In this document: piece by piece, positions 21,878 to 59,485 of the stretch
Layout of the letters: each line of letters begins with the position of its first letter
How positions within the stretch are numbered: the first letter of the stretch is position 1
Source of the DNA: Octopus vulgaris
Taxonomy: Eukaryota
Direction: 5' to 3'
Assembly (NCBI GenBank): GCA_951406725.2
Contig: OX597814.1
Span: 57,164,001 to 57,228,000 of the forward strand
Length of the DNA: 64,000 bases
Notes under the pieces: model-generated
Database searches by the model: none
Told to the model about the DNA's origin: nothing
The model's input: only the letters and a program-made list of their open reading frames with translations
Made by a program: the position numbers and the translations under genes

Positions 21878-21880
<3 letters not shown>

Positions 21881-22655: not shown

Positions 22656-22712
22656 CACAACCCGTGTTCCACATCTCCTTTTTTAAATATATATATATAT
22701 ATATATATATGT

Positions 22713-22758
<46 letters not shown>

Positions 22759-25055: not shown

Positions 25056-25159
<104 letters not shown>

Positions 25160-25169
25160 CAACAAGCGT

Positions 25170-35300: not shown

Positions 35301-36692
35301 TTTGAAAGCGCTTTGTTCTTAAACGAACAAAACGCTTTCAAATCTAAGAAACCATAAACGTCTGCTTCTCAACTCACACCTCAATTCCTTTTATGCACTA
35401 ATAGCTAATTATGCATACTTTATAAACAATTCGCTTTTAACGAAGCAAAACAAAACTAGATATCTCTACAACCCTTCTTAAAATCCCACAAATATATTTA
35501 TTAGTAGCAAAATAAGACAGTAAAATACACGAACGCGCGCGCAGATACACACACATACACACACGTACACACACAAACGTACATACACACGCACACACAC
35601 ACACATTCACGCACAGATTTAGTAGATAAAACTATGCATACCAAACACCCTCTCCGTGCCAGCAGTTTTATCCAAAGGAAAGACAAAGGCCGATACAGCT
35701 TGGCACCAGTAACGTCGCAATTCATTTCTGCAGCTGAGTGAACTGGAGTAACGTGAAATAAAGTATCATTCTCAAGATTATAGCACACAGCCCAGTCCGG
35801 GAATCGAACTTACTACATCATGATTGTGAGTCAGATGCTCTAACCACTGAGCCGAGTTCACGCTAAGCCTATACGTCATTTAAACACTTCAGCCAACGTT
35901 TTTCCTAATAGAAAACTACAACCGAAATATAAGTAGATTGGCAATATATGTGAAGGGGGCGGAGATGATTCGAGAGTTCCAGGGTATTGAGGAGTGTGAA
36001 ATAAACCTCATAGCCACCATTGTTCCCAGGTTGTTCTGACTCAGAATAGCAGCGCCTGTCAGGGCCTCAGCTGTGGGTTAATTAGTATGTTTGGACTTGT
36101 CTACCTATGTATGGGAAGGCTTCTTCTGGCGGACTCTGCGGAAGAAGCGTTTATAGTTCAACAGAAAGAAAAGCAGCTACAACAATGCATTGTGAATGCA
36201 GAGAGCAAGATGAAGCAACTAAAACATCATGTTAGCCACTGTCTCAGTTTCCATCGCCAGTTGTCTTGACCTGGTCCTGCTACAGCATGCATTGAAGACA
36301 GTTACAGAAAGAGAATGACATTGACAGTGCGTAATTCTTCACTTTAATCAAAGTCGCCACACAGGTCATCGGTCGTCCTTAAGGATAAGCAGATGTTCTT
36401 CGTCGCTTCGACAGATGTAGATGTGTATTTTAGTAATGACTGGAAATAGTACTTGTGCTTTATTATTTACGGGCTCTCATATATATATATATATATATAC
36501 AGATAAGAGAAAAAAATCTATCAGAAAGGAACTCTATCTCTCTTTAAAAAATATCTTTTGATAAGCATAACAAATGCGCAACCGGTAAAAAGAACTTTCA
36601 CCTAATTAAATACACTCTCCCTTACTTAAATTATTTTGTCAGCATTTTCTTCAATTCCTTTTTTTATATGTCACAACTCGTGTTCCACATCT

Positions 36693-36741
<49 letters not shown>

Positions 36742-39094
36742 CATATATATATATATATTTGTATATATATATATACAGACATATATATATATATATATAT
36801 ACTCTGTCAGGTCGCTATCAAGCGCTACTGGTAACATGTAACCCAGTAAGAACCTGTTGCAGAGGTGTATGAGTAACGCAAAACGTATGAGTTAAAGAGT
36901 GTCTGAACCTTCTCATACTTAATCACTTTCTCACGCAATCACTACATTCTAAAGTTAGTTTTTCAAGACATTTATCACATCATCGATTTACAACCAACCA
37001 AGTTCAAACCAGCCATATTTAAATTAATAACTATTTTAATTCGCACATAGAATAGACCAACGCGGGGTGGAGCTAAGTGTGCTGTCACTTTTGATAAAAT
37101 ACGTATATACATGAGGGGGTGCCAGAAAAGTTTCTGGCTTTTAGTAAAAGAAAATAGAGGAAGAGAAGTTAATTATAGTTTTAGTCAACATATTCCCCTC
37201 TCAGATTTACACACTTATTGCAGTAATCCTTCAGTTTTTCTAAGCCATGTAAAAGAAAGACATAAGATGAATTCAACAGAGGACATTGCTTGTAATTCCC
37301 GAAAGGGATTAACGAATATTTACGGACAATTGTAAACATTTCGGCTCTGCCATCTTACTCTCTTATAGGTATGCAAATACTGGGAAAATATCGACACATC
37401 ATCGAAATTAAACTACGCAAATGACAGGGATCCTAAGATCAGTTTAGCTTATTGAGAAATCTGGTTGCGGGAAACACATTTACCCGGTGTACTTGGAGGA
37501 AGCAAGACAGAGAGAGGAGGGAAAGGGCGGTAGAAATTCCCCACAGTTATAGCCGAGTGGCTAAATGCTACGAAGCAATATAGCTCTTGGTTCGATCTCT
37601 GGGTGCAATACTTTGGTTAGATGTTTTCTTCTTGACTATAGGATTTACCAAAAATTTATGTGTAAGACTTGACAGACCGAAATAATTAAGTAGCCAATCA
37701 TAAACACACACACACGCACACACACACACGCGCGCGCACAACTTCGTCATAAATCCAATTTTTAAAAATAAGTATCATGGTAATTTGCATGCAGTGTGAA
37801 ATATGTGTGAAATATGTATGAAATACAGTGTGACTATGTCTGAAATACTTTGGTATGAAGAGTATTATAACGAATTTACTTATTCGAACTTAAAGATCAT
37901 ATTTTGTACATTTTCTAATTTTATATTAAGAACTCGGTTTAATAATTTTCGTAACATCGTAATTCACGCACGAGTCTCTTTTCCTTTTAAGACTCCACAG
38001 AATGTACAACATATAGTGATTCCAATATTTTTTAGCAACAATGCCATACTTTTTAAGGTTTATTTATGACATTTTGTAACCCTTTTGAACTGTGCAATTT
38101 TCAATTCTAGTGTATATTTTGTTAACCTTTTATTTAAATTTTCACAAATTAGTTGTGAAGAGGTTAAAATGACAGAGTCAAAGAAAATATCAAGCAGTAT
38201 TTCGTTTTGTCCCTAATACATTCTGGAATTTAAACTATATAAGCAGCTGGTTTATATTGGGGTCTGTTTAATCGACTGTGTCTCATGTCCTATATTTTTG
38301 TAATCAATGTATCTAAACGCTTTTAAGTAAACACAGTAGCAGCAGTGTTTTACAGGATTTGAGTTATAAGGAAGCGATGCGTATAGTTTTCACCACAATT
38401 ATAATAATGGGAGAGAAGGGTTACGGCTCAATCCTGATTTAACAAACCCCACTTATTTATGAAGTACACACGCACCAGGTATTTTCATGCGTTTTTATTT
38501 AAATATAAGCAAATTGTAAAGAAATGGTATGAATTAGAGCAAAAGAAATTTAGGTAAAATAAATCGTTAGCTGATAATTCTACTATCCTTCATAGAACTC
38601 CATAAAATAAGAACACAAAAGCAACTCACACACACATACACACACATATTCATACATATTTATATGCGCACACTCACAAACACACTCATGCAAACGCTAT
38701 ATGATAAACTATAAAAGGAATTTAGACACAACCATTAAACAATTTCAAATGCAGCGTTAATATTATTTTTTTTCAATTTCAGAATTATCTCCATCATCCT
38801 TGTTATCCACTAGAGAAACGTGACTATAATGGACCTCTGTCATCATTGCAATAAGATGATGTCGAGGTTTTGGGAACTTTGACGAACGTTGGTGCATTAT
38901 TGTTCCTCTTTAAAATTTAACCCAAAAGAAATTTGAACGCATTAATTTTCTCATGGATATTAGTTTTGTTTGTCAGAATGATTTATTCTAAAACCTGTAT
39001 TGTGTTCCAGGTATTCTGGCTTTTATCTCGACAGTGACCTCTTGTCGTGTCCTCATTAACAAGGTTCTTCATAGCACAACCGAACCGTCTTTGG

Positions 39095-39149
<55 letters not shown>

Positions 39150-39351
39150 CATTATTATCATTATTATTATCATTATTATTATTATTCAATTTAACGCGAC
39201 GAATACATTTTCAAATAAGCTTATCTTCATCTTTTTGATACGACTCTCTACTCTATACTGTTTTCTTGCTCCATCCTTTTCTAATTCCCTTTTTCTCTCT
39301 TTCCTCCTTCACCGTTTTATAACTGTCTATCTATCTCCCCCTCTTTCTCTT

Positions 39352-39394
<43 letters not shown>

Positions 39395-39896
39395 TCATAC
39401 GTGACCATCGTCCATCTTTCTTTTCCTCATGTGTCGATCATTCTTTTCCAGCACGAGCATTTAAAAGACGGACGTGTTGTTCTCTCTCTCTCTCTTCTAT
39501 CTTTTCTCTTTACAAAAAATGTGTCTCCCAGTGTTCACTATTTCTCTCTCGTTCTGGTGTAACGACCCTCCATGATTGTTTTCGTTCGGTTTCCTTGTAT
39601 GTCTCCACTGTCACATTTTAGTTCCCAACCTTGACCTTCCATAGATCCTAAGTTTTATTTTAGAATGAATGGGAGCAACTGTCTTTGAAGACTAATATTC
39701 TCGTTGAATGCTCGAAATGAGGAGTAGATAGACTGCCAACAACTGATGAAGTGTCATTAACTTAATTTTCATTTGACGGATATTTGTCCTCATCTTGTTT
39801 GTTGTTTACACGTTTCGGTTGATATAATCTCCAGCCTTCATCAGGTGTCATGGAGAAATTTCTAACCTGGGTTCTCATTCCTAAGGTATCTTTCGA

Positions 39897-39899
<3 letters not shown>
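30752..39899 (-). repeat. Inner right arm of large inverted duplication, with extra blocks 33117-34827 and ~37900-39095
   Basis: Reverse complement of 19940-26585. Confidence 0.95.
33117..34602 (+). mobile_element. 5' region and ORF1 of an L1/Tx1-like element, 3'-truncated
   Basis: ORFs 33684..34004 and 33994..34440 ending RPRCF*CGQKGHVRSVC knuckle; flanked by a 225-bp direct repeat. Confidence 0.75.
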
Positions 39900-39960
<61 letters not shown>

Positions 39961-39973
39961 TTTATTTTTGTTG

Positions 39974-40031
<58 letters not shown>

Positions 40032-40871
40032 CATCATTATTATTTCCTTCTTTCTTCAAATTTTCTTCCGTTTCTCGACGAGTATTTTCCCGTAAACCTA
40101 TGCATTGCCAGGATTAGTTCGAAAGGAACCCTCCCTTCGTCAGTGATACATGTGGCAAAGAAGTAAATGAGATACTTACTCATACCCATGGAAAAAGCAA
40201 ACACTAAGTCATGAGCACAACTAAGTACCCCAAATAAATCCAAAATAGAAATACTCAAGCCCATTCAAGACACGTGCGATTTGAACTGAGGCACTCACAG
40301 AGTGGGAGAGTCCGGAAGTGAACATTATTAAATTTATATCTAATGTAGGATAAAATTTTTTCGAAAAAAATTTTTATCGATGGCCAGCATATTAAAAAAT
40401 ACCTTTAAAGGTTAAATTATAATCAACTTATAAATAAGGGCAAACAAAAAAATTTCTAATGCTAAATATGCCGAAAGTTGGGCATATTGTCCATTTACCA
40501 TATAATTTTTTTCCCAGTACGCACGCTACTCGAAAAAAGGCCGACAGAAATCTCTAAAATATTCCATTATTACCATATCGAACCGATTTCAGGGTTAGTT
40601 CAAAAAGAACCCTCTCTTCGTCAGTGGGAGACATCAATTGCATATATATGTATATATGTAAGTCTATGTGTATGTCTTAGTGTTTCTCCCTCATCACTGC
40701 TTCACAACTGGTGTTCGTTTATTTACATCCACATAACTTACTGGTTTCACAAGAAGAAACTGATAGAATAAGTACCAGGCTTATCAAAATAAAAAAAAGC
40801 ACTAGGCAGTTGTATCTATCAATTTATCTTTGTATCGTGTGTGTATCTCTCTCTCTCTCTCTCTCTCTCTG

Positions 40872-44588: not shown

Positions 44589-44623
44589 GTTTCCGACGAA
44601 GAGCTCTGCTCGAAACGTTAAAC
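44589..44623 (+). ncRNA. Minimal hammerhead-like motif in an unrelated pLTR fragment
   Basis: gttt CCGACGA a gagc tct gctc GAAAC GT T aaac; palindromic ACGT stem III. Confidence 0.65.
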
Positions 44624-44745
44624 CCTCCTTCCCTTCTTTCCTGAGCGTCAATAATACTTTAATTGTTCCACGTCCTGCGTTGCTGTGTTTTTTTCTCCTT
44701 TTTTTTTTTCTCTTTTTTTCTGTGTTTTCTTGTTTGGATTAACTT

Positions 44746-44782
<37 letters not shown>

Positions 44783-44878
44783 ATAAAACGGTAAGATAAC
44801 AAAAGAAAGAAAGAGACCTCAATATTATGTAAATAGAGGAAATTTATCTATACAATATGTTACATTACTCGGTAGTCA

Positions 44879-44941
44879 AGATAAAACTCTGAGTTTCAGA
44901 TGCCGAAGTGGAAATCCACAACACCATCTCTTCGGTTATCT
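44879..44941 (-). ncRNA. Type I hammerhead-like ribozyme, unit 1; further - copies at 47459-47521, 50038-50100, 52623-52685
   Basis: Sense agataa CCGAAGA gatg..catc t GAA actc a gagt T ttatct; stems I, II and III all pair. Confidence 0.75.
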
Positions 44942-45126
44942 GGCTATTTGAAAACGTTATGAAAAAATACCGTTAAAAATGAAGGGAAATTACTCTGTTA
45001 TAACTCTGCTTTGCCTGCGTACTTATACATCGCTCGCATTTTTCGTCATAAAAATTATATAAAAATACATAAAAAATATATAAAAATATATAAAATCTTC
45101 TTGGGACATAACACAGAAAGCATGTT

Positions 45127-47253
45127 CTATCCGTTTTCTTTAGGGGACCAAAAACGTAACAGAAATTTAGTCACATGTGGGCATGATCCGAAAAGTTCTG
45201 TCCTTGTATTTAGACATGTGGTAGGGTCTAAGCTGCTTTTCCAGATAAGCCATCTCTCCATGTCGCATAAACCGCACCTTCCGCTGCCGTTAGTATAGGG
45301 CTTACATCTGGCCAAAATCTTCCATTGTATGTTATAATCGACACCTTTATCTCTTAAAGACCAAATATGATTGGATAATTGTGTCGCTTTTCTTTTGTTC
45401 CAGTGCCTAAAGCTCAAAGTGTGGTTATTGAACCTGGTCTTGAAATTACCCTCTGTCAGGCCCACGTATTTCTTCGTCAAAACGGTGTCTTTAGTGGTTA
45501 TAGAGTTTACGGTAGCCTCATATATGATGGTCTTGGACATGCAAGCTCCATTTAGCGGGCACAATTCTTTATTCCTGCATGAACAGCTGTTTTCTTCTTG
45601 TGTTTTTTGTATGTTATGATTGATTATGTTTTTAAAATTGGTAGTTGAACTAAAACTAATTTTTAAATTGTGTCTATTGAAGAGTTTCCTATAAGCATGG
45701 TTAACTGGAAAATGTCTATCTATCAGTGCTAGGAAATATTTACCTATATTGAAGGCCACCTCGGGTGAGTAAGGGGGCGTAAACCAGATGACCTTCCTAT
45801 TTCTATTATTCCTTTTCCTTATTGTTGGGCTGGTGATAGGTGTATATTTTATTTTTTCGCTAAAACCACTATCTTTTAAAGCTTTATTATAAACTGGGGC
45901 AACGCTATTGAAGATGTCCTCATTAGATGAGAGGCTAGAAATCCTATTACTAATATTTTTAACTAAATTTTTGAATACTATAGGGGGATGGCATGAACCT
46001 ACATTAATATAACTTAGTCTATCATTGGGCTTCCTATAAGGCTTATAAATATTATTATTAAGATCTAAGGAAACGTCTAAGAAATTGACAACCGTCAGGT
46101 TAGTGTCTATAGTTATACTAAGTCCGAAGTGTTTCATTAACTGGATAATATCCTTCCTAAAACGATCTTGTGCTGGTCCATTTGTATTAGCTGTTAAGGC
46201 GAGGGCATCATCTTTGTAGATGGCGAAATGTACGTTAGGGAATGTCTTACTGAAGGTATCTAGGAGAAAGAGTCCAATTAGATCACAGATGCCTGCCCCA
46301 TCATATGAACCCATGCTCACATCGAAAGCGCCCTCCGTGTCGGTGTTTTTTACCCACTTTGCATTCTCACTGAAAAGTAATGTCTTTCTAGCATGGAAGA
46401 TTATATCCTTATCATTGGTACTAATTTCTATGAAGTCACTAGCGAAGATTAGGGCTTTATCTAGCAGTTCTTTAGAGATAGAGGCATAAAAATCAACAAT
46501 ATCGAATTGTGTAAACCTCGCTTTTTTCTTATTCTTAATAGCTTTAAACCAGTCTACGACTTCTATACTATTGGACCATTGCACTAGCCTAGTATCGCTC
46601 TTAATTTTCGTATTTATTTTATCTAAAATTTCTTTGCTAATAATCCCTAGTTCTGACTTGGCTGGGTTGATAAGCCTACATTTAGGATTGGAAAGGAAGT
46701 TTTCTTTGTGGTCTTTAATAGTAATAAAGGCCTCTTTTTGGGGGAGGGTTTCTATTTTTTTATCTAATTTAAGTTTAGCGGCGATGACGCTAGCTTCTTT
46801 ATTAATTTCGTTATATGTCTGTGCCCTAGCTTTAGTATAATTATTAATGATGCTGTTGTGTAAGAGTTGTGTGTATTTGCTGTTATCTACCAGGTATAAG
46901 TTCTTGGTTTTATCCGAAAAAAGTGCTTTTTTCTTGGAGCTTTTTATATGATCAATATCTTTCTTCAATTTATGTTGGAAATTGTTAAAAGACTTACGAA
47001 ACTTTATTTTGCTCATGATCTTCAGCAGGTCCGCTTCGAAATCTTCCAAGCCTTTAATCCTAGGAGGGAATTTTTTGGATTTTATCCGATAGCAAATGTT
47101 TTCCTTGGTGTTCGCTTCTGTGTCAAAAAAGAAAGCCTTCCATCTCATACGCTTAATTACATCAGTAATTTTTTGCAGAAGTTTCTTAGAGTAAAAATCC
47201 TTTGATGGGATCGGTATATTTTTCATAGAATAATCTATGTGATATGCGTCCAT
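45127..47253 (-). CDS. Penelope/Naiad RT + GIY-YIG endonuclease, 708 aa, intact
   Basis: KDHK, RLINP, FDIVDFY-SI, MGSYDGA, YKDD, FLDVSLDL, CSC-CPLNGAC, IIY..YVG, R..NH, CGLCDME, CPH. Confidence 0.95.
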   Translation of the reverse strand: MDAYHIDYSMKNIPIPSKDFYSKKLLQKITDVIKRMRWKAFFFDTEANTKENICYRIKSKKFPPRIKGLEDFEADLLKIMSKIKFRKSFNNFQHKLKKDIDHIKSSKKKALFSDKTKNLYLVDNSKYTQLLHNSIINNYTKARAQTYNEINKEASVIAAKLKLDKKIETLPQKEAFITIKDHKENFLSNPKCRLINPAKSELGIISKEILDKINTKIKSDTRLVQWSNSIEVVDWFKAIKNKKKARFTQFDIVDFYASISKELLDKALIFASDFIEISTNDKDIIFHARKTLLFSENAKWVKNTDTEGAFDVSMGSYDGAGICDLIGLFLLDTFSKTFPNVHFAIYKDDALALTANTNGPAQDRFRKDIIQLMKHFGLSITIDTNLTVVNFLDVSLDLNNNIYKPYRKPNDRLSYINVGSCHPPIVFKNLVKNISNRISSLSSNEDIFNSVAPVYNKALKDSGFSEKIKYTPITSPTIRKRNNRNRKVIWFTPPYSPEVAFNIGKYFLALIDRHFPVNHAYRKLFNRHNLKISFSSTTNFKNIINHNIQKTQEENSCSCRNKELCPLNGACMSKTIIYEATVNSITTKDTVLTKKYVGLTEGNFKTRFNNHTLSFRHWNKRKATQLSNHIWSLRDKGVDYNIQWKILARCKPYTNGSGRCGLCDMERWLIWKSSLDPTTCLNTRTELFGSCPHVTKFLLRFWSPKENG

Positions 47254-47706
47254 ATTAGATTCTTTTGTTTGTGAGAGTCCTCAACCGATGTTAGGCGATA
47301 ATCCCAAAAAGGTCGTATTAGCTCTTAGTTGAGAATAACGTCGTCCGGGAGGTGATTTATTGATAAAACGGTAAGATAACAAAAGAAAGAAAGAGACCTC
47401 AATATTATGTAAATAGAGGAAATTTATCTATACAATATGTTACATTACTCGGTAGTCAAGATAAAACTCTGAGTTTCAGATGCCGAAGTGGAAATCCACA
47501 ACACCATCTCTTCGGTTATCTGGCTATTTGAAAACGTTATGAAAAAATACCGTTAAAAATGAAGGGAAATTACTCTGTTATAACTCTGCTTTGCCTGCGT
47601 ACTTATACATCGCTCGCATTTTTCGTCATAAAAATTATATAAAAATACATAAAAAATATATAAAAATATATAAAATCTTCTTGGGACATAACACAGAAAG
47701 CATGTT

Positions 47707-49832
47707 CTATCCGTTTTCTTTAGGGGACCAAAAACGTAACAGAAATTTAGTCACATGTGGGCATGATCCGAAAAGTTCTGTCCTTGTATTTAGACATGTG
47801 GTAGGGTCTAAGCTGCTTTTCCAGATAAGCCATCTCTCCATGTCGCATAAACCGCACCTTCCGCTGCCGTTAGTATAGGGCTTACATCTGGCCAAAATCT
47901 TCCATTGTATGTTATAATCGACACCTTTATCTCTTAAAGACCAAATATGATTGGATAATTGTGTCGCTTTTCTTTTGTTCCAGTGCCTAAAGCTCAAAGT
48001 GTGGTTATTGAACCTGGTCTTGAAATTACCCTCTGTCAGGCCCACGTATTTCTTCGTCAAAACGGTGTCTTTAGTGGTTATAGAGTTTACGGTAGCCTCA
48101 TATATGATGGTCTTGGACATGCAAGCTCCATTTAGCGGGCACAATTCTTTATTCCTGCATGAACAGCTGTTTTCTTCTTGTGTTTTTTGTATGTTATGAT
48201 TGATTATGTTTTTAAAATTGGTAGTTGAACTAAAACTAATTTTTAAATTGTGTCTATTGAAGAGTTTCCTATAAGCATGGTTAACTGGAAAATGTCTATC
48301 TATCAGTGCTAGGAAATATTTACCTATATTGAAGGCCACCTCGGGTGAGTAAGGGGGCGTAAACCAGATGACCTTCCTATTTCTATTATTCCTTTTCCTT
48401 ATTGTTGGGCTGGTGATAGGTGTATATTTTATTTTTTCGCTAAAACCACTATCTTTTAAAGCTTTATTATAAACTGGGGCAACGCTATTGAAGATGTCCT
48501 CATTAGATGAGAGGCTAGAAATCCTATTACTAATATTTTTAACTAAATTTTTGAATACTATAGGGGGATGGCATGAACCTACATTAATATAACTTAGTCT
48601 ATCATTGGGCTTCCTATAAGGCTTATAAATATTATTATTAAGATCTAAGGAAACGTCTAAGAAATTGACAACCGTCAGGTTAGTGTCTATAGTTATACTA
48701 AGTCCGAAGTGTTTCATTAACTGGATAATATCCTTCCTAAAACGATCTTGTGCTGGTCCATTTGTATTAGCTGTTAAGGCGAGGGCATCATCTTTGTAGA
48801 TGGCGAAATGTACGTTAGGGAATGTCTTACTGAAGGTATCTAGGAGAAAGAGTCCAATTAGATCACAGATGCCTGCCCCATCATATGAACCCATGCTCAC
48901 ATCGAAAGCGCCCTCCGTGTCGGTGTTTTTTACCCACTTTGCATTCTCACTGAAAAGTAATGTCTTTCTAGCATGGAAGATTATATCCTTATCATTGGTA
49001 CTAATTTCTATGAAGTCACTAGCGAAGATTAGGGCTTTATCTAGCAGTTCTTTAGAGATAGAGGCATAAAAATCAACAATATCGAATTGTGTAAACCTCG
49101 CTTTTTTCTTATTCTTAATAGCTTTAAACCAGTCTACGACTTCTATACTATTGGACCATTGCACTAGCCTAGTATCGCTCTTAATTTTCGTATTTATTTT
49201 ATCTAAAATTTCTTTGCTAATAATCCCTAGTTCTGACTTGGCTGGGTTGATAAGCCTACATTTAGGATTGGAAAGGAAGTTTTCTTTGTGGTCTTTAATA
49301 GTAATAAAGGCCTCTTTTTGGGGAGGGTTTCTATTTTTTTATCTAATTTAAGTTTAGCGGCGATGACGCTAGCTTCTTTATTAATTTCGTTATATGTCTG
49401 TGCCCTAGCTTTAGTATAATTATTAATGATGCTGTTGTGTAAGAGTTGTGTGTATTTGCTGTTATCTACCAGGTATAAGTTCTTGGTTTTATCCGAAAAA
49501 AGTGCTTTTTTCTTGGAGCTTTTTATATGATCAATATCTTTCTTCAATTTATGTTGGAAATTGTTAAAAGACTTACGAAACTTTATTTTGCTCATGATCT
49601 TCAGCAGGTCCGCTTCGAAATCTTCCAAGCCTTTAATCCTAGGAGGGAATTTTTTGGATTTTATCCGATAGCAAATGTTTTCCTTGGTGTTCGCTTCTGT
49701 GTCAAAAAAGAAAGCCTTCCATCTCATACGCTTAATTACATCAGTAATTTTTTGCAGAAGTTTCTTAGAGTAAAAATCCTTTGATGGGATCGGTATATTT
49801 TTCATAGAATAATCTATGTGATATGCGTCCAT
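47707..49832 (-). pseudogene. Naiad ORF copy 2, 1-bp frameshift
   Basis: G5 to G4 at ~49321; otherwise matches copy 1; may be a homopolymer sequencing error. Confidence 0.85.
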
Positions 49833-50290
49833 ATTAGATTCTTTTGTTTGTGAGAGTCCTCAACCGATGTTAGGCGATAATCCCAAAAAGGTCGTATTAG
49901 CTCTTAGTTGAGAATAACGTCGTCCGGGAGGTGATTTATTGATAAAACGGTAAGATAACAAAAGAAAGAAAGAGACCTCAATATTATGTAAATAGAGGAA
50001 ATTTATCTATACAATATGTTACATTACTCGGTAGTCAAGATAAAACTCTGAGTTTCAGATGCCGAAGTGGAAATCCACAACACCATCTCTTCGGTTATCT
50101 GGCTATTTGAAAACGTTATGAAAAAATACCGTTAAAAATGAAGGGAAATTACTCTGTTATAACTCTGCTTTGCCTGCGTACTTATACATCGCTCGCATTT
50201 TTCGTCATAAAAATTATATAAAAATACATAAAAAATATATAAAAATATATAAAAATATATCTTCTTGGGACATAACACAGAAAGCATGTT

Positions 50291-52417
50291 CTATCCGTTT
50301 TCTTTAGGGGACCAAAAACGTAACAGAAATTTAGTCACATGTGGGCATGATCCGAAAAGTTCTGTCCTTGTATTTAGACATGTGGTAGGGTCTAAGCTGC
50401 TTTTCCAGATAAGCCATCTCTCCATGTCGCATAAACCGCACCTTCCGCTGCCGTTAGTATAGGGCTTACATCTGGCCAAAATCTTCCATTGTATGTTATA
50501 ATCGACACCTTTATCTCTTAAAGACCAAATATGATTGGATAATTGTGTCGCTTTTCTTTTGTTCCAGTGCCTAAAGCTCAAAGTGTGGTTATTGAACCTG
50601 GTCTTGAAATTACCCTCTGTCAGGCCCACGTATTTCTTCGTCAAAACGGTGTCTTTAGTGGTTATAGAGTTTACGGTAGCCTCATATATGATGGTCTTGG
50701 ACATGCAAGCTCCATTTAGCGGGCACAATTCTTTATTCCTGCATGAACAGCTGTTTTCTTCTTGTGTTTTTTGTATGTTATGATTGATTATGTTTTTAAA
50801 ATTGGTAGTTGAACTAAAACTAATTTTTAAATTGTGTCTATTGAAGAGTTTCCTATAAGCATGGTTAACTGGAAAATGTCTATCTATCAGTGCTAGGAAA
50901 TATTTACCTATATTGAAGGCCACCTCGGGTGAGTAAGGGGGCGTAAACCAGATGACCTTCCTATTTCTATTATTCCTTTTCCTTATTGTTGGGCTGGTGA
51001 TAGGTGTATATTTTATTTTTTCGCTAAAACCACTATCTTTTAAAGCTTTATTATAAACTGGGGCAACGCTATTGAAGATGTCCTCATTAGATGAGAGGCT
51101 AGAAATCCTATTACTAATATTTTTAACTAAATTTTTGAATACTATAGGGGGATGGCATGAACCTACATTAATATAACTTAGTCTATCATTGGGCTTCCTA
51201 TAAGGCTTATAAATATTATTATTAAGATCTAAGGAAACGTCTAAGAAATTGACAACCGTCAGGTTAGTGTCTATAGTTATACTAAGTCCGAAGTGTTTCA
51301 TTAACTGGATAATATCCTTCCTAAAACGATCTTGTGCTGGTCCATTTGTATTAGCTGTTAAGGCGAGGGCATCATCTTTGTAGATGGCGAAATGTACGTT
51401 AGGGAATGTCTTACTGAAGGTATCTAGGAGAAAGAGTCCAATTAGATCACAGATGCCTGCCCCATCATATGAACCCATGCTCACATCGAAAGCGCCCTCC
51501 GTGTCGGTGTTTTTTACCCACTTTGCATTCTCACTGAAAAGTAATGTCTTTCTAGCATGGAAGATTATATCCTTATCATTGGTACTAATTTCTATGAAGT
51601 CACTAGCGAAGATTAGGGCTTTATCTAGCAGTTCTTTAGAGATAGAGGCATAAAAATCAACAATATCGAATTGTGTAAACCTCGCTTTTTTCTTATTCTT
51701 AATAGCTTTAAACCAGTCTACGACTTCTATACTATTGGACCATTGCACTAGCCTAGTATCGGTCTTAATTTTCGTATTTATTTTATCTAAAATTTCTTTG
51801 CTAATAATCCCTAGTTCTGACTTGGCTGGGTTGATAAGCCTACATTTAGGATTGGAAAGGAAGTTTTCTTTGTGGTCTTTAATAGTAATAAAGGCCTCTT
51901 TTTGGGGGAGGGTTTCTATTTTTTTATCTAATTTAAGTTTAGCGGCGATGACGCTAGCTTCTTTATTAATTTCGTTATATGTCTGTGCCCTAGCCTTAGT
52001 ATAATTATTAATGATGCTGTTGTGTAAGAGTTGTGTGTATTTGCTGTTATCTACCAGGTATAAGTTCTTGGTTTTATCCGAAAAAAGTGCTTTTTTCTTG
52101 GAGCTTTTTATATGATCAATATCTTTCTTCAATTTATGTTGGAAATTGTTAAAAGACTTACGAAACTTTATTTTGCTCATGATCTTCAGCAGGTCCGCTT
52201 CGAAATCTTCCAAGCCTTTAATCCTAGGAGGGAATTTTTTGGATTTTATCCGATAGCAAATGTTTTCCTTGGTGTTCGCTTCTGTGTCAAAAAAGAAAGC
52301 CTTCCATCTCATACGCTTAATTACATCAGTAATTTTTTGCAGAAGTTTCTTAGAGTAAAAATCCTTTGATGGGATCGGTATATTTTTCATAGAATAATCT
52401 ATGTGATATGCGTCCAT
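50291..52417 (-). CDS. Naiad ORF copy 3, 708 aa, intact
   Basis: Same as copy 1 except KSDTR to KTDTR. Confidence 0.95.
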   Translation of the reverse strand: MDAYHIDYSMKNIPIPSKDFYSKKLLQKITDVIKRMRWKAFFFDTEANTKENICYRIKSKKFPPRIKGLEDFEADLLKIMSKIKFRKSFNNFQHKLKKDIDHIKSSKKKALFSDKTKNLYLVDNSKYTQLLHNSIINNYTKARAQTYNEINKEASVIAAKLKLDKKIETLPQKEAFITIKDHKENFLSNPKCRLINPAKSELGIISKEILDKINTKIKTDTRLVQWSNSIEVVDWFKAIKNKKKARFTQFDIVDFYASISKELLDKALIFASDFIEISTNDKDIIFHARKTLLFSENAKWVKNTDTEGAFDVSMGSYDGAGICDLIGLFLLDTFSKTFPNVHFAIYKDDALALTANTNGPAQDRFRKDIIQLMKHFGLSITIDTNLTVVNFLDVSLDLNNNIYKPYRKPNDRLSYINVGSCHPPIVFKNLVKNISNRISSLSSNEDIFNSVAPVYNKALKDSGFSEKIKYTPITSPTIRKRNNRNRKVIWFTPPYSPEVAFNIGKYFLALIDRHFPVNHAYRKLFNRHNLKISFSSTTNFKNIINHNIQKTQEENSCSCRNKELCPLNGACMSKTIIYEATVNSITTKDTVLTKKYVGLTEGNFKTRFNNHTLSFRHWNKRKATQLSNHIWSLRDKGVDYNIQWKILARCKPYTNGSGRCGLCDMERWLIWKSSLDPTTCLNTRTELFGSCPHVTKFLLRFWSPKENG

Positions 52418-52880
52418 ATTAGATTCTTTTGTTTGTGAGAGTCCTCAACCGATGTTAGGCGATAATCCCAAAAAGGTCGTATTAGCTCTTAGTTGAGAAT
52501 AACGTCGTCCGGGAGGTGATTTATTGATAAAACGGTAAGATAACAAAAGAAAGAAAGAGACCTCAATATTATGTAAATAGAGGAAATTTATCTATACAAT
52601 ATGTTACATTACTCGGTAGTCAAGATAAAACTCTGAGTTTCAGATGCCGAAGTGGAAATCCACAACACCATCTCTTCGGTTATCTGGCTATTTGAAAACG
52701 TTATGAAAAAATACCGTTAAAAATGAAGGGAAATTACTCTGTTATAACTCTGCTTTGCCTGCGTACTTATACATCGCTCGCATTTTTCGTCATAAAAATT
52801 ATATAAAAATACATAAAAAATATATAAAAATATATAAAAATATATAAAATCTTCTTGGGACATAACACAGAAAGCATGTT

Positions 52881-55007
52881 CTATCCGTTTTCTTTAGGGG
52901 ACCAAAAACGTAACAGAAATTTAGTCACATGTGGGCATGATCCGAAAAGTTCTGTCCTTGTATTTAGACATGTGGTAGGGTCTAAGCTGCTTTTCCAGAT
53001 AAGCCATCTCTCCATGTCGCATAAACCGCACCTTCCGCTGCCGTTAGTATAGGGCTTACATCTGGCCAAAATCTTCCATTGTATGTTATAATCGACACCT
53101 TTATCTCTTAAAGACCAAATATGATTGGATAATTGTGTCGCTTTTCTTTTGTTCCAGTGCCTAAAGCTCAAAGTGTGGTTATTGAACCTGGCCTTGAAAT
53201 TACCCTCTGTCAGGCCCACGTATTTCTTCGTCAAAACGGTGTCTTTAGTGGTTATAGAGTTTACGGTAGCTTCATATATGATGGTCTTGGACATGCAAGC
53301 TCCATTTAGCGGGCACAATTCTTTATTCCTGCATGAACAGCTGTTTTCTTCTTGTGTTTTTTGTATGTTATGATTGATTATGTTTTTAAAATTGGTAGTT
53401 GAACTAAAACTAATTTTTAAATTGTGTCTATTGAAGAGTTTCCTATAAGCATGGTTAACTGGAAAATGTCTATCTATCAGTGCTAGGAAATATTTACCTA
53501 TATTGAAGGCCACCTCGGGTGAGTAAGGGGGCGTAAACCAGATGACCTTCCTATTTCTATTATTCCTTTTCCTTATTGTTGGGCTGGTGATAGGTGTATA
53601 TTTTATTTTTTCGCTAAAACCACTATCTTTTAAAGCTTTATTATAAACTGGGGCAACGCTATTGAAGATGTCCTCATTAGATGAGAGGCTAGAAATCCTC
53701 TTACTAATATTTTTAACTAAATTTTTGAATACTATAGGGGGATGGCATGAACCTACATTAATATAACTTAGTCTATCATTGGGCTTCCTATAAGGCTTAT
53801 AAATATTATTATTAAGATCTAAGGAAACGTCTAAGAAATTGACAACCGTCAGGTTAGTGTCTATAGTTATACTAAGTCCGAAGTGTTTCATTAACTGGAT
53901 AATATCCTTCCTAAAACGATCTTGTGCTGGTCCATTTGTATTAGCTGTTAAGGCGAGGGCATCATCTTTGTAGATGGCGAAATGTACGTTAGGGAATGTC
54001 TTACTGAAGGTATCTAGGAGAAAGAGTCCAATTAGATCACAGATGCCTGCCCCATCATATGAACCCATGCTCACATCGAAAGCGCCCTCCGTGTCGGTGT
54101 TTTTTACCCACTTTGCATTCTCACTGAAAAGTAATGTCTTTCTAGCATGGAAGATTATATCCTTATCATTGGTACTAATTTCTATGAAGTCACTAGCGAA
54201 GATTAGGGCTTTATCTAGCAGTTCTTTAGAGATAGAGGCATAAAAATCAACAATATCGAATTGTGTAAACCTCGCTTTTTTCTTATTCTTAATAGCTTTA
54301 AACCAGTCTACGACTTCTATACTATTGGACCATTGCACTAGCCTAGTATCGGTCTTAATTTTCGTATTTATTTTATCTAAAATTTCTTTGCTAATAATCC
54401 CTAGTTCTGACTTGGCTGGGTTGATAAGCCTACATTTAGGATTGGAAAGGAAGTTTTCTTTGTGGTCTTTAATAGTAATAAAGGCCTCTTTTTGGGGGAG
54501 GGTTTCTATTTTTTTATCTAATTTAAGTTTAGCGGCGATGACGCTAGCTTCTTTATTAATTTCGTTATATGTCTGTGCCCTAGCCTTAGTATAATTATTA
54601 ATGATGCTGTTGTGTAAGAGTTGTGTGTATTTGCTGTTATCTACCAGGTATAAGTTCTTGGTTTTATCCGAAAAAAGTGCTTTTTTCTTGGAGCTTTTTA
54701 TATGATCAATATCTTTTTTCAATTTATGTTGGAAATTGTTAAAAGACTTACGAAACTTTATTTTGCTCATGATCTTCAGCAGGTCCGCTTCGAAATCTTC
54801 CAAGCCTTTAATCCTAGGAGGGAATTTTTTGGATTTTATCCGATAGCAAATGTTTTCCTTGGTGTTCGCTTCTGTGTCAAAAAAGAAAGCCTTCCATCTC
54901 ATACGCTTAATTACATCAGTAATTTTTTGCAGAAGTTTCTTAGAGTAAAAATCCTTTGATGGGATCGGTATATTTTTCATAGAATAATCTATGTGATATG
55001 CGTCCAT
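52881..55007 (-). CDS. Naiad ORF copy 4, 708 aa, intact
   Basis: KTDTR, ISKRI and FKARF variants. Confidence 0.95.
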   Translation of the reverse strand: MDAYHIDYSMKNIPIPSKDFYSKKLLQKITDVIKRMRWKAFFFDTEANTKENICYRIKSKKFPPRIKGLEDFEADLLKIMSKIKFRKSFNNFQHKLKKDIDHIKSSKKKALFSDKTKNLYLVDNSKYTQLLHNSIINNYTKARAQTYNEINKEASVIAAKLKLDKKIETLPQKEAFITIKDHKENFLSNPKCRLINPAKSELGIISKEILDKINTKIKTDTRLVQWSNSIEVVDWFKAIKNKKKARFTQFDIVDFYASISKELLDKALIFASDFIEISTNDKDIIFHARKTLLFSENAKWVKNTDTEGAFDVSMGSYDGAGICDLIGLFLLDTFSKTFPNVHFAIYKDDALALTANTNGPAQDRFRKDIIQLMKHFGLSITIDTNLTVVNFLDVSLDLNNNIYKPYRKPNDRLSYINVGSCHPPIVFKNLVKNISKRISSLSSNEDIFNSVAPVYNKALKDSGFSEKIKYTPITSPTIRKRNNRNRKVIWFTPPYSPEVAFNIGKYFLALIDRHFPVNHAYRKLFNRHNLKISFSSTTNFKNIINHNIQKTQEENSCSCRNKELCPLNGACMSKTIIYEATVNSITTKDTVLTKKYVGLTEGNFKARFNNHTLSFRHWNKRKATQLSNHIWSLRDKGVDYNIQWKILARCKPYTNGSGRCGLCDMERWLIWKSSLDPTTCLNTRTELFGSCPHVTKFLLRFWSPKENG

Positions 55008-55214
55008 ATTAGATTCTTTTGTTTGTGAGAGTCCTCAACCGATGTTAGGCGATAATCCCAAAAAGGTCGTATTAGCTCTTAGTTGAGAATAACGTCGTCC
55101 GGGAGGTGATTTATTGATAAAACGGTAAGATAACAAAAGAAAGAAAGAGACCTCAATATTATGTAAATAGAGGAAATTTATCTATACAATATGTTACATT
55201 ACTCGGTAGTCAAG

Positions 55215-55714
55215 TACCAATTAAAAACATAATCAATATAACATCAAAAAAACAAGAAGAAAACCTGTTCATGCAGATAAAAATTTGCGCTAAATGATTG
55301 CATGTCCAAGACCATCATATATGAGCTACCGTAAACTCTATAACCACTAAAGACACCGTTTTGACGAAGAAATACGTGGGCCTGACAGAGGGTAATTTCA
55401 AGACCAGGTTCAATAACCACACTTTGAGCTTTAGGCACTGGAACAAAAGAAAAGCGACACAATTATCCAATCATATTTGGTCTTTAAGAGATAAAGGTGT
55501 CGATTATAACATACAATGGAAGATTTTGGCCAGATGTAAGCCCTATACTAACGGCAGCGGAAGGTGCGGTTTATGCGACATGGAGAGATGGCTTATCTGG
55601 AAAAGCAGCTTAGACCCTACCACATGTCTAAATACAAGGACAGAACTTTTCGGATCATGCCCACATGTGACTAAATTTCTGTTACGTTTTTGGTCCCCTA
55701 AAGAAAACGGATAG
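55215..55714 (+). pseudogene. 5'-truncated Naiad ORF (GIY-YIG part) at the inversion junction
   Basis: Corresponds to 57789-58305; first ~115 bp carry many small deletions. Confidence 0.9.
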
Positions 55715-55911
55715 AACATGCTTTCTGTGTTATGTCCCAAGAAGATTTTATATATTTTTATATATTTTTTTTATATATTTTTATGTATTTTTATATAATT
55801 TTTATGACGAAAAATGCGAGCGATGTATAAGTACGCAGGCAAAGCAGAGTTATAACAGAGTAATTTCCCTTCATTTTTAACGGTATTTTTTCATAACGTT
55901 TTCAAATAGCC

Positions 55912-55974
55912 AGATAACCGAAGAGATGGTGTTGTGGATTTCCACTTCGGCATCTGAAACTCAGAGTTTTATCT
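55912..55974 (+). ncRNA. Hammerhead-like ribozyme, inverted arm; second + copy 58491-58553
   Basis: Same sequence as the - copies; predicted cleavage after GUU at 55968. Confidence 0.75.
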
Positions 55975-56179
55975 TGACTACCGAGTAATGTAACATATTG
56001 TATAGATAAATTTCCTCTATTTACATAATATTGAGGTCTCTTTCTTTCTTTTGTTATCTTACCGTTTTATCAATAAATCACCTCCCGGACGACGTTATTC
56101 TCAACTAAGAGCTAATACGACCTTTTTGGGATTATCGCCTAACATCGGTTGAGGACTCTCACAAACAAAAGAATCTAAT

Positions 56180-58305
56180 ATGGACGCATATCACATAGAT
56201 TATTCTATGAAAAATATACCGATCCCATCAAAGGATTTTTACTCTAAGAAACTTCTGCAAAAAATTACTGATGTAATTAAGCGTATGAGATGGAAGGCTT
56301 TCTTTTTTGACACAGAAGCGAACACCAAGGAAAACATTTGCTATCGGATAAAATCCAAAAAATTCCTCCTAGGATTAAAGGCTTGGAAGATTTCGAAGCG
56401 GACCTGCTGAAGATCATGAGCAAAATAAAGTTTCGTAAGTCTTTTAACAATTTCCAACATAAATTGAAGAAAGATATTGATCATATAAAAAGCTCCAAGA
56501 AAAAAGCACTTTTTTCGGATAAAACCAAGAACTTATACCTGGTAGATAACAGCAAATACACACAACTCTTACACAACAGCATCATTAATAATTATACTAA
56601 AGCTAGGGCACAGACATATAACGAAATTAATAAAGAAGCTAGCGTCATCGCCGCTAAACTTAAATTAGATAAAAAAATAGAAACCCTCCCCCAAAAAGAG
56701 GCCTTTATTACTATTAAAGACCACAAAGAAAACTTCCTTTCCAATCCTAAATGTAGGCTTATCAACCCAGCCAAGTCAGAACTAGGGATTATTAGCAAAG
56801 AAATTTTAGATAAAATAAATACGAAAATTAAGAGCGATACTAGGCTAGTGCAATGGTCCAATAGTATAGAAGTCGTAGACTGGTTTAAAGCTATTAAGAA
56901 TAAGAAAAAAGCGAGGTTTACACAATTCGATATTGTTGATTTTTATGCCTCTATCTCTAAAGAACTGCTAGATAAAGCCCTAATCTTCGCTAGTGACTTC
57001 ATAGAAATTAGTACCAATGATAAGGATATAATCTTCCATGCTAGAAAGACATTACTTTTCAGTGAGAATGCAAAGTGGGTAAAAAACACCGACACGGAGG
57101 GCGCTTTCGATGTGAGCATGGGTTCATATGATGGGGCAGGCATCTGTGATCTAATTGGACTCTTTCTCCTAGATACCTTCAGTAAGACATTCCCTAACGT
57201 ACATTTCGCCATCTACAAAGATGATGCCCTCGCCTTAACAGCTAATACAAATGGACCAGCACAAGATCGTTTTAGGAAGGATATTATCCAGTTAATGAAA
57301 CACTTCGGACTTAGTATAACTATAGACACTAACCTGACGGTTGTCAATTTCTTAGACGTTTCCTTAGATCTTAATAATAATATTTATAAGCCTTATAGGA
57401 AGCCCAATGATAGACTAAGTTATATTAATGTAGGTTCATGCCATCCCCCTATAGTATTCAAAAATTTAGTTAAAAATATTAGTAATAGGATTTCTAGCCT
57501 CTCATCTAATGAGGACATCTTCAATAGCGTTGCCCCAGTTTATAATAAAGCTTTAAAAGATAGTGGTTTTAGCGAAAAAATAAAATATACACCTATCACC
57601 AGCCCAACAATAAGGAAAAGGAATAATAGAAATAGGAAGGTCATCTGGTTTACGCCCCCTTACTCACCCGAGGTGGCCTTCAATATAGGTAAATATTTCC
57701 TAGCACTGATAGATAGACATTTTCCAGTTAACCATGCTTATAGGAAACTCTTCAATAGACACAATTTAAAAATTAGTTTTAGTTCAACTACCAATTTTAA
57801 AAACATAATCAATCATAACATACAAAAAACACAAGAAGAAAACAGCTGTTCATGCAGGAATAAAGAATTGTGCCCGCTAAATGGAGCTTGCATGTCCAAG
57901 ACCATCATATATGAGGCTACCGTAAACTCTATAACCACTAAAGACACCGTTTTGACGAAGAAATACGTGGGCCTGACAGAGGGTAATTTCAAGACCAGGT
58001 TCAATAACCACACTTTGAGCTTTAGGCACTGGAACAAAAGAAAAGCGACACAATTATCCAATCATATTTGGTCTTTAAGAGATAAAGGTGTCGATTATAA
58101 CATACAATGGAAGATTTTGGCCAGATGTAAGCCCTATACTAACGGCAGCGGAAGGTGCGGTTTATGCGACATGGAGAGATGGCTTATCTGGAAAAGCAGC
58201 TTAGACCCTACCACATGTCTAAATACAAGGACAGAACTTTTCGGATCATGCCCACATGTGACTAAATTTCTGTTACGTTTTTGGTCCCCTAAAGAAAACG
58301 GATAG
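56180..58305 (+). pseudogene. Naiad ORF copy 5 (inverted), 1-bp frameshift
   Basis: CCC to CC at ~56365; otherwise like copies 1 and 2; may be a homopolymer error. Confidence 0.85.
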
Positions 58306-58581
58306 AACATGCTTTCTGTGTTATGTCCCAAGAAGATTTTATATATTTTTATATATTTTTTATGTATTTTTATATAATTTTTATGACGAAAAATGCGAGC
58401 GATGTATAAGTACGCAGGCAAAGCAGAGTTATAACAGAGTAATTTCCCTTCATTTTTAACGGTATTTTTTCATAACGTTTTCAAATAGCCAGATAACCGA
58501 AGAGATGGTGTTGTGGATTTCCACTTCGGCATCTGAAACTCAGAGTTTTATCTTGACTACCGAGTAATGTAACATATTGTA

Positions 58582-58612
<31 letters not shown>

Positions 58613-59485
58613 TGTATTCTCCAAATGGATAGACAGACGAACATCTCAAGAAAATTAAATACTTTAACATATTACCCAAATACGTAAACACACCTTTTAT
58701 TCACGTCGTTGAATCTTTGAATTTCTGAATTCAGTTGTGTTGTTGCAATAAAAGGTGTGTTTACTTATTTGGGTAATATATTAGTGTTTTAAAATTTTCT
58801 TGAGATGTTCGTTTGTCTGTCCAGTTGGAGAAAAACAGTAGGACTTTTGCAATGAAAAATGTTACATTTTCGAATACTCAGGGGGAGTCAAAAAGAAAAG
58901 AAAACGAGTTGTAGATAGTATAGTTTTAAGATTTACTAAATATGGTCTTTTGTATCAATGCACAGCGAGAAATGATAGTGTTCTTAGAATAAAAAGGTAG
59001 ATGATGTTTACATTTTACGAATATTCAGGGATAAAGGAAAAGATAGGAATTCACAGTAGTTGTAGATATTAAAGGTTTTTTTGTTTTAAAGCTAATCGTT
59101 TGTGCATTCGAAAGCTGTAGGTATGTAAGTTTCCTCACGTTTGAGGAAGATTTAAAATATTCACAGGAAATTGCAGATATTCCAGTCTTTGGGAATAGCA
59201 GGAGAAAGAGATGATCACCTTGTTGGATTTTAGAATTTCTGAATTTCTTTTCTTTTGGAATTTTTCTTTTCTTTTTATATGTTTTGCTGTGGTTTACAGT
59301 TTTTGTAGTTGTGCTTCCTTGCTTAATATTTATCGTGCATTTAATTGAGTTGATACAATAAATAGCATGATTACCTATTCTGTTTGTCAGGAAAGAATGA
59401 AAGATACGAGGTTCACACAAAATTGGAGGTATAAATGTTTCTAAACTTTTTGAGGTGTTCGTTCGAAGAAGACTGTGGTCACCAC

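What the first reader, a model, noticed from the sequence alone, without database searches (positions are those of the whole stretch)
55179..58587. Inversion geometry: two 3' ends, a 36-nt overlap, and a breakpoint 4 nt from the ribozyme cut site
Seen: both outer ends are element 3' ends joined to (TA)n through ATA microhomology, at pLTR positions ~67 nt apart. The - array's 5' end (55214) begins cttgactacc, 4 nt downstream of the predicted GUU cleavage. The inverted arm ends with the same 36 nt (58552-58587 is the reverse complement of 55179-55214), so flipping it restores one continuous 5.3-unit tandem. Known: this pattern is the signature of twin priming in L1. Inference: both target strands primed reverse transcription on a ~13.8-kb concatemer or on circles, and the first cDNA ended at the hammerhead.
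Basis: partly seen in the sequence, partly recalled or inferred. Interest (0 to 1): 0.8.

Follow-up and report, generated by a model that had tools for sequence, protein, structure and literature searches.

The report
Two-armed Hydra-clade Penelope retrotransposon insertion
This Penelope-type jumping gene usually sits in TA repeats as two back-to-back arms, one ending at each of two fixed points of the element, likely because both cut DNA strands start a copy; the layout is already described, and the 36-base overlap flagged here is mostly a by-product of it.

Summary
The coordinates are right: 4.05 units on -, 1.31 on +, two 3' ends in (TA)n 67 nt apart, an exact 36-nt overlap, and a break 4 nt past a hammerhead-like GUU. 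The element is a young Penelope-like retrotransposon with the Hydra-clade motifs. The inversion is the family's usual insertion: 77 of 115 sampled insertions have two arms, 72 of them one 'long' (+107) and one 'short' (+36/+40) end, none two alike. Both sites carry ATA|AATnnCCTC. The L1 geometry fails: in 63 of 72 both arms copy the same stretch, and allele patterns tie the + arm to the outermost - units, not to a flipped 5.3-unit tandem. The overlap follows from the fixed +40 end. Breakpoints are not concentrated at the cut: 158 of 162 arms run through the terminal ribozyme, and 4 of 95 upstream passes stop at +1..+10 (weak excess). Best reading: both target strands prime reverse transcription at two fixed sites, probably on one RNA. 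The layout and two start sites are published; this scan noted the strict pairing before on other DNA. No read confirmed this junction.

The parts
44749..44777 (.). Left (TA)n target tract
44778..44884 (-). Outer end of the long arm: +1..+107 after the last hammerhead (tailed end), joined to (TA)n through ATA
   Evidence: the same end occurs 1,312 times genome-wide
44885..47464 (-). Unit M1 (2,580 nt, cut to cut), open 717-codon frame 45127-47280; young haplotype
47465..50043 (-). Unit M2, same haplotype as M1, frame split by a 1-nt deletion
50044..52628 (-). Unit M3, open frame 50291-52444; recombinant haplotype (young 3' part, older 5' part, switch between +867 and +1519)
52629..55214 (-). 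Unit M4, starts at +5; open frame 52881-55034 (RT + C-terminal GIY-YIG, RWK, DKT, YKDD, CxCx5C); older haplotype
55207..55214 (.). Head-to-head junction; imperfect 8-nt overlap between the arms
55215..55330 (+). Deletion-rich start of the short arm (13 deletions, no insertions); likely sequencing error
55215..55968 (+). Partial unit P0 (about +1820 to +2580)
55969..58547 (+). Unit P1, identical to M1 but for a 1-nt deletion (664-codon frame 56311-58305)
56006..56017 (+). Start-site motif ATA|AATttCCTC at +38 (short end); example copy
56073..56084 (+). Start-site motif ATA|AATcaCCTC at +105 (long end); example copy
58491..58553 (+). Type I hammerhead-like motif (stem I 6 bp, core CCGAAGA, stem II 4 bp, extra U, GAAA, palindromic stem III, GUU); other copies at 55912-55974 (+) and 44879-44941, 47459-47521, 50038-50100, 52623-52685 (-)
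   Evidence: no Rfam hammerhead match at E<=10
58548..58587 (+). Outer end of the short arm: +1..+40, joined to (TA)n through ATA
   Evidence: the +36/+40 end occurs 975 times genome-wide
58588..58609 (.). Right (TA)n target tract

Best explanation
This is one insertion of a young Penelope-like retrotransposon whose usual product is two head-to-head arms ending at two fixed sites, likely because the element's enzyme cuts both strands of a TA repeat and each 3' end primes reverse transcription, one at +107 and one at +36/+40 of the 3' pseudo-LTR. Shown: the two fixed ends, their one-of-each pairing, the shared ATA|AATnnCCTC motif, the overlap of the two arms, allele sharing between arms, and short microhomologies at inner joints. 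Inferred: a dimeric RT-endonuclease; both primers usually on one RNA, the trailing (+107) copy displacing the leading one or sometimes stalling on it; each cDNA stopping on its own or at the RNA's 5' end; the two cDNA ends joined by short homology and filled in. At this locus the long cDNA copied 4 units (changing to an older haplotype inside M3) and stopped at +5; the short cDNA copied 1.3 units of the same 3' end. The 36-nt overlap is +5 to +40. Whether the +5 stop marks ribozyme cleavage is open (about 40%, my estimate).
For: 72 of 77 two-armed insertions are long+short, 5 have an unclassified partner, none is long+long or short+short; second sample of 57 loci: 36 long+short, 1 long+long, 9 one-armed, 11 unclassified or cut off. 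51 of 63 listed short ends have a divergent long end within 15 kb, none convergent or same-strand. The motif occurs exactly twice per unit, 67 nt apart. Arms of one insertion differ by 0.32% against 1.06% between insertions (38 insertions). Inner ends coincide within 35 nt in 30 of 72 (7.3 by permutation), in 7 of 39 long pairs (1.2, P=3e-4), and within 3 nt in 12 of 19 short pairs (4.2). The short arm reaches further 5' than the long arm in 17 of 72, so it is not always a copy of it. Long arms stop at +30..+45 at 4.9 per kb against 1.2-1.6 on either side (7 stops, two ambiguous with TA). Overlap of 2 nt or more in 42 of 79 insert-free joints, 18% by chance. P1 has the M1/M2 haplotype. In vitro, an anole PLE extends both target strands and starts at two internal RNA sites that bound the tail (PMC11167929, parts 1-2 of 4 read).
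Against: 38 of 115 records have no detected inverted partner (some show a tiny one). 42 of 72 pairs have inner ends more than 35 nt apart, which one RNA does not predict without trimming. Two RNAs from one donor would give the same allele sharing. In the anole system start-site use did not differ between strands (PMC11167929), which does not by itself explain strict pairing. 62 of 141 joints carry inserted letters instead of overlap. No public contig among four runs bridged this junction. The haplotype argument rests on six sites in an assembled repeat array.
Confidence: 0.7

Rival explanations
1. One reading: L1-type twin priming on one 13.8-kb concatemer (or circle); the first cDNA ran 4 units and ended at the hammerhead, the second primed internally 36 nt inside that end and copied 1.3 further units.
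For: The arithmetic works. A minority of insertions do abut: 10 of 72 within 50 nt, e.g. L055 (long arm stops at +40); upstream passes stop at +30..+45 six times in 95. 4 of 95 upstream passes stop at +1..+10.
Against: The short end is at +36/+40 wherever the other arm stops; 63 of 72 pairs overlap. The flipped order needs two haplotype switches (young-young-old-mixed-young-young), the co-linear order one. Units differ, so not one circle. In L1 the second primer anneals internally by chance complementarity (bioRxiv 10.1101/2024.08.27.596794 and PMC2912911, passages), not at a fixed signal.
Confidence: 0.1
2. Self-priming or fold-back: one cDNA (or an antisense template, as Arkhipova et al. 2013 proposed) folds back at its end and copies itself; the copy is then attached to the second target strand.
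For: Many joints are near-perfect palindromes (spacers of 0-5 nt in 11 of the 30 coincident pairs). PMC3846280 (passages) reads such palindromes as self-priming. A fold-back of either cDNA followed by annealing to the other would also make inner ends coincide.
Against: A fold-back of the long arm alone cannot give a short arm that reaches further 5' (17 of 72), and one of the short arm cannot make the +41..+107 tail. Spacers of 0-2 nt are hard to form as priming loops (general knowledge). Here P1 lacks the M3 alleles it would mirror.
Confidence: 0.12
3. Artefact or secondary event: the junction at 55214 is a fold-back read, a mis-join of two loci, or later recombination between two insertions.
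For: 13 deletions in 135 nt right after the junction; depth over 55262-55285 is 0, 0, 0.52 and 0 in four public runs while flanks are high; inverted duplications cause missed bases in nanopore reads (PMC7229812, passages); both flanks are repeats.
Against: The same layout recurs in 77 of 115 records, and 137 of 141 joints lack such a deletion cluster. The two outer ends are the expected long+short pair and share a haplotype seen at few other loci (L133, L215, L232, L241). The runs may be of individuals without this insertion, and contigs show presence, not absence. The deletions are more simply read errors on a real inversion.
Confidence: 0.08

Closest known systems
Complex tandem/inverted insertions of EN+ Penelope-like elements with a one-sided tail (Craig et al. 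2021, PMC8557442; Arkhipova et al. 2013, PMC3846280)
   Same: Partial tandems, an inverted 5'-truncated copy joined head to head, an extension at only one end, (TA)n targets without readable target duplication.
   Different: Tail is 67-71 nt rather than 30-40; here counted on over 100 insertions, with strict long+short pairing and coinciding inner ends, which the passages read do not quantify.
Hydra clade of C-terminal EN+ PLEs (PMC8557442, section 11)
   Same: Unit under 3 kb, single ORF, RWK, DKT, CxCx5C linker, CxxC and CxH, (TA)n insertion, hammerhead.
   Different: YKDD in all 119 copies checked where 120 of 120 database relatives have YRDD; hammerhead core is non-canonical (U4C, extra U before G12).
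PAc, Poseidon element of the green anole, in vitro (Frangieh et al. 2024, PMC11167929)
   Same: Both target strands cut and extended; two internal RT start sites that bound the tail; uncleaved RNA is the main template; AT-rich targets.
   Different: Other clade; there priming used no homology and showed no strand difference in start site, here each end has ATA shared with the target and the pairing is one of each.
L1 twin priming (as described in PMC2912911 and bioRxiv 10.1101/2024.08.27.596794)
   Same: Two target ends prime two cDNAs, joined head to head by short homology.
   Different: L1's second primer lands at variable internal sites and the two cDNAs copy adjoining stretches; here both primers use fixed sites 67 nt apart and the cDNAs copy the same stretch.

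Membership tests
EN+ Penelope-like element | Single ORF with RT and C-terminal GIY-YIG endonuclease | tested here: met
   717-codon frame; weak Pfam GIY-YIG hit, E=0.012, below the cut-off, in one of two frames scanned; 837 relatives at E<=1e-20, the listed ones covering 89-99% of the query and unnamed; RT motifs read by eye
EN+ Penelope-like element | Tandem/inverted insertions with pLTR and one-sided tail | tested here: met
Hydra clade | Under 3 kb; RWK; DKT; CxCx5C linker; CxxC and CxH; (TA)n targets | tested here: met
   against the list in PMC8557442 section 11
Hydra clade | Groups with Hydra RTs in a phylogeny | not tested
   no named reference sequences were fetched
Hydra clade | Canonical hammerhead | tested here: inconclusive
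   fold fits type I but with U4C and an extra U; no Rfam match
Type I hammerhead ribozyme | Three stems around CUGANGA / GAAA / NUH | tested here: inconclusive
   stems 6, 4 and 2-3 bp form at -15.4 against -18.7 kcal/mol for the best fold; the only common core change in 321 copies is at the free N7 (19 copies); two core departures. U4C lowers activity in vitro (PMC3088659, passage). No covariation available in so young a family
Type I hammerhead ribozyme | Self-cleavage | not testable with these tools
   only indirect: 4 of 95 upstream passes stop at +1..+10
L1-type twin priming | Inner end of one arm abuts the priming site of the other | tested here: not met
   10 of 72 within 50 nt; 63 of 72 overlap by more than 50 nt
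L1-type twin priming | Second priming site variable, set by chance complementarity | tested here: not met
   fixed at +36/+40 and +107
L1-type twin priming | Two target-primed cDNAs joined by microhomology | tested here: met
   two 3' ends outward; overlap of 2 nt or more in 42 of 79 insert-free joints against 18% by chance
L1-type twin priming | Both primers on the same RNA molecule | tested here: inconclusive
   coinciding inner ends and shared alleles favour it; two RNAs of one donor or a fold-back step are not excluded
Rolling-circle copying of one RNA circle | All tandem units identical apart from independent errors | tested here: not met
   at this locus M3 and M4 carry older alleles found at other loci; most other multi-unit insertions are homogeneous, so circles stay open for the family

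The most novel reading that the evidence does not exclude
Double priming is the normal integration route of this clade: an asymmetric enzyme dimer reads two copies of a short RNA signal (ATA|AATnnCCTC) and loads one target strand on each, two polymerases run in tandem along one RNA by strand displacement, the template is effectively endless (tandem read-through, end-to-end jumps or circles), and the weak hammerhead cuts only where two copies can pair, leaving occasional 5' ends at the cut such as the one at 55214.
Probability: 0.3. Interest if true: 0.72.

Novelty: new member of a known kind. Interest (0 to 1): 0.42.

Why it matters
How Penelope-like elements make their tandem/inverted insertions and tails is named as an open question in PMC8557442, and an in vitro system now exists (PMC11167929). 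A young family with over a thousand insertions gives hard numbers that a mechanism must meet: one long and one short end per event, a shared 12-nt signal at both, overlapping arms, inner ends that often coincide, and a ribozyme that most cDNAs run through. These translate into simple mutational tests. The single locus flagged here adds little beyond being an unusually long example with a haplotype switch.

Tried and rejected
DNA search of the own genome with 208 nt of the pLTR returned nothing although the window holds it; exact patterns were used instead. Rfam gave no hammerhead at E<=10, and the free fold of the motif region is no better than shuffles (z=-1.3); neither speaks against a weak or dimeric hammerhead. 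No RNA holder was listed among public runs. Contigs of four runs did not bridge the junction; that is inconclusive, and no read-level view of it was obtained. A target-site duplication cannot be read inside (TA)n. I considered that the older alleles of M3/M4 mark the stretch that pairs with the + arm and was mis-polished: the mirror partner of the + arm is about 50000-53400, whereas the older alleles lie at 51762-54717, and M4 keeps other alleles of its sub-lineage, so I rejected it. I considered the short palindromic copies as one self-spreading element: their joints all differ. Same-phase stops one unit apart (L208, L227, L229) were noted by eye and are too few to use. Literature searches listed no paper that applies twin priming to Penelope-like elements; the library lacks most subscription journals (Evgen'ev and Arkhipova 2005 and Arkhipova 2006 were not seen), and no supplements were opened, so unseen figures may already show strict pairing.

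Full report
Numbering. Positions count from the predicted hammerhead cut: +1 is the first base after GTT, -1 the base before. 'Long' (L) and 'short' (S) name the two kinds of outer end.

1. Observation. Self-comparison of the window shows four tandem units on - (44778-55214) and 1.3 units on + (55215-58587), unit 2,580 nt, over 99% alike. 58552-58587 equals the reverse complement of 55179-55214 exactly, and the same 36-mer recurs at every pLTR, 7 times. The outer ends are +107 and +40, each ending in ATA before (TA)n. The inner end of the - array is +5. It missed that the first ~135 nt of the + arm carry 13 deletions and no insertions and that the two arms overlap imperfectly by 8 nt at the joint, which blurs the '4 nt'.

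2. The element. Three - units hold an open 717-codon frame. Pfam gives only a sub-threshold GIY-YIG hit; 837 unnamed relatives pass E<=1e-20. The protein has RWK, DKT, CxCx5C, CxxC and CxH, the unit is under 3 kb and targets (TA)n: the features that PMC8557442 lists for the Hydra clade (section 11 read whole). No tree was built. The pLTR motif folds as a type I hammerhead with stems of 6, 4 and 2-3 bp and a palindromic loop III, but with U4C and an extra U before G12; among 321 aligned copies the one common core change is at the free position N7. Rfam does not detect it. PMC4209133 (passages) describes such motifs as weak and likely dimeric; PMC3088659 (passage) says U4C lowers activity in vitro.

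3. The genome (G000) holds 3,962 exact copies of a hammerhead 25-mer, 1,312 long ends and 975 short ends joined to TA; each search lists only its first 100 places. Among ends listed on contig C1 up to 207 Mb, 51 of 63 short ends have a divergent long end within 15 kb, none a convergent or same-strand one, and no short end has another short end near it. I fetched 136 loci on C1 and kept those with an exact long or short end, dropping two duplicates and one locus without alignment: 115 records including the window (two loci gave two records each). 77 have an inverted partner within 70 nt; 72 are L+S, 5 have an unclassified partner, none is L+L or S+S. A second sample chosen by a motif at +111 (57 loci, C4-C17) gave 36 L+S, 1 L+L, 9 one-armed and 11 unclassified or cut off. 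The inversion is therefore the family's usual product, with one end of each kind. The two sites share ATA|AATnnCCTC, found exactly twice per unit, 67 nt apart (the lead to compare the two sites came from scan note e1-9599845; its hairpins fold only weakly here, -3.7 and -1.9 kcal/mol).

4. L1 geometry. In L1 twin priming the second primer lands inside the RNA by chance complementarity and copies the adjoining stretch (bioRxiv 10.1101/2024.08.27.596794 and PMC2912911, passages). Here 63 of 72 pairs copy the same stretch over more than 50 nt and only 10 of 72, the window among them, abut within 50 nt in phase. Because the short end is fixed, any arm stopping at +5 overlaps it by 36 nt. Alleles agree: at six sites P1 has the type of M1 and M2, M4 has an older type and M3 is a recombinant; both types exist at other loci, so they predate this insertion. 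Reading both arms from the same 3' end needs one switch; the flipped 5.3-unit order needs two. One RNA circle would give identical units. A minority of long arms do stop on the short site (7 stops at +30..+45, 4.9 per kb against 1.2-1.6; two are ambiguous with TA), which is the L1-like outcome and fits collision with a primer on the same RNA.

5. The ribozyme and the breakpoint. At the terminal pLTR 158 of 162 arms that reach +10 run past -10, and stops at +1..+10 are no more frequent than beside it; the main cluster is -90..-51 (45 of 178 arms). For upstream pLTRs I traced the first 100 of 154 exact matches of the +111 motif, leaving out the window's five: of 95 passes, 4 stop at +1..+10 (5.2 per kb; P=0.007 against 0.96 per kb in the ORF, P=0.08 against the pLTR-zone mean), 7 at +90..+111, 6 at +30..+45, 8 at -90..-46, and 42 run on beyond -440. 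The bins were set after looking and are not corrected. So breakpoints are not random about the pLTR, but the cut is a minor site. This fits PMC11167929 (parts 1-2 of 4 read), where ribozyme mutants insert normally. A dimer-dependent hammerhead would cut only in RNAs with two copies, which fits an excess in upstream passes; that is inference. I put the chance that 55214 marks a cleaved RNA end at about 40%; the 8-nt overlap could equally have fixed the point.

6. One RNA or two. Arms of one insertion are closer (0.32%) than arms of different insertions (1.06%) and share non-majority bases 11 times more often (38 insertions): one source. Inner ends coincide within 35 nt in 30 of 72 pairs (7.3 by permutation), in 7 of 39 pairs with both arms beyond -150 (1.2; P=3e-4), and within 3 nt in 12 of 19 pairs ending at -150..-20 (4.2). 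Two cDNAs running off one RNA end explain this; so would a fold-back of either cDNA followed by annealing to the other. A fold-back of the long arm alone does not, since the short arm reaches further in 17 of 72. Two polymerases on one RNA need strand displacement and no RNase H; that PLE RTs lack RNase H and that R2 RT displaces strands is recalled, not from a call. Of 141 head-to-head joints, 79 have no inserted letters and 42 of these overlap by 2 nt or more (18% by chance); 62 carry inserts.

7. Is this junction real? Contigs of four public runs cover both flanks deeply but fall to 0-0.5 over 55262-55285, and loose ends there carry the intact element sequence. No contig bridged the joint. 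The runs may come from individuals without this insertion, so this neither confirms nor refutes it. Inverted duplications cause missed bases in nanopore reads (PMC7229812, passages); 4 of 141 joints show such clusters. The correct L+S pair of ends and the shared uncommon haplotype argue for a real single insertion with local read errors. The sequencing method of the assembly is not known to me.

8. What is known. Inverted 5'-truncated copies and a one-sided 30-40-bp tail are standard for EN+ PLEs (PMC8557442, passages); head-to-head is the commonest inverted form and was read as self-priming (PMC3846280, passages); the anole PLE extends both strands and starts at two sites bounding the tail (PMC11167929). 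bioRxiv 10.64898/2026.07.22.740005 (passages) links retrozymes to PLEs and adds nothing on inversions in the passages seen. Searches listed no paper giving strict pairing or applying twin priming to PLEs, within a library that lacks most subscription papers; supplements were not opened. This scan noted the same two-arm pairing earlier, for retrozymes in this genome and PLEs in others; those notes are unchecked and not independent support.

9. Verdict. Real feature, correctly described, largely of a known kind. What deserves follow-up is the family-level rule: one long and one short end per event, a shared signal at both, and coinciding inner ends. Interest 0.42; new member of a known kind.

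Noticed in passing
window 50044-55214 (M3, M4): Haplotype switch inside the array: young type in M1, M2 and the 3' part of M3, older type from between +867 and +1519 of M3 through M4. Most other multi-unit insertions are homogeneous (L253 is mixed too). Template switch between RNAs of two donors, a mixed donor array or later conversion.
   Followed up: partly
window 55215-55330; L037:1192-1600, L251, L205: Clusters of small deletions in one arm beside the inner joint (4 of 141 joints with 4 or more deletions in 140 nt); in L037 they run along the whole arm. Likely missed bases of long reads at inverted repeats.
   Followed up: partly
family-wide, -90..-51 from the cut: Main stop cluster: 45 of 178 arms (9.4 per kb), both arms often within 3 nt; lies at the 5' strand of hammerhead stem I; may be an RNA start site.
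   Followed up: partly
L193, L209, L213, L214, L224, L231, L235, L243, L247, L250: Extra inner segments whose 3' ends fall at +157..+317 (most at +197..+250, near the first ATG at +212), joined to an arm's 5' end at varying points; look like jumps onto short pLTR transcripts.
   Followed up: no
window 57214-57225 and all units: RT motif is YKDD in all 119 copies checked, YRDD in 120 of 120 database relatives, yet the family is young and abundant.
   Followed up: partly
G000:C3:37225748-37236116 (L187-L191) and L232: Other multi-unit two-armed arrays of the same family (1+4 and 2+2 motif copies at least).
   Followed up: partly
window 19788-26584 and 30752-40044: A large interrupted inverted duplication (85-98% identity) of non-coding, microsatellite-rich DNA.
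   Followed up: no
window 44590-44748: Left flank holds a GACGAAGAG...CGAAAC stretch that looks by eye like a decayed hammerhead of another repeat ending in (TA)n.
   Followed up: no
window 58595-59109 and 15528-16046: Right flank is a repeat with an internal inverted repeat (93% identical copy at 15528-16046), also next to (TA)n.
   Followed up: no
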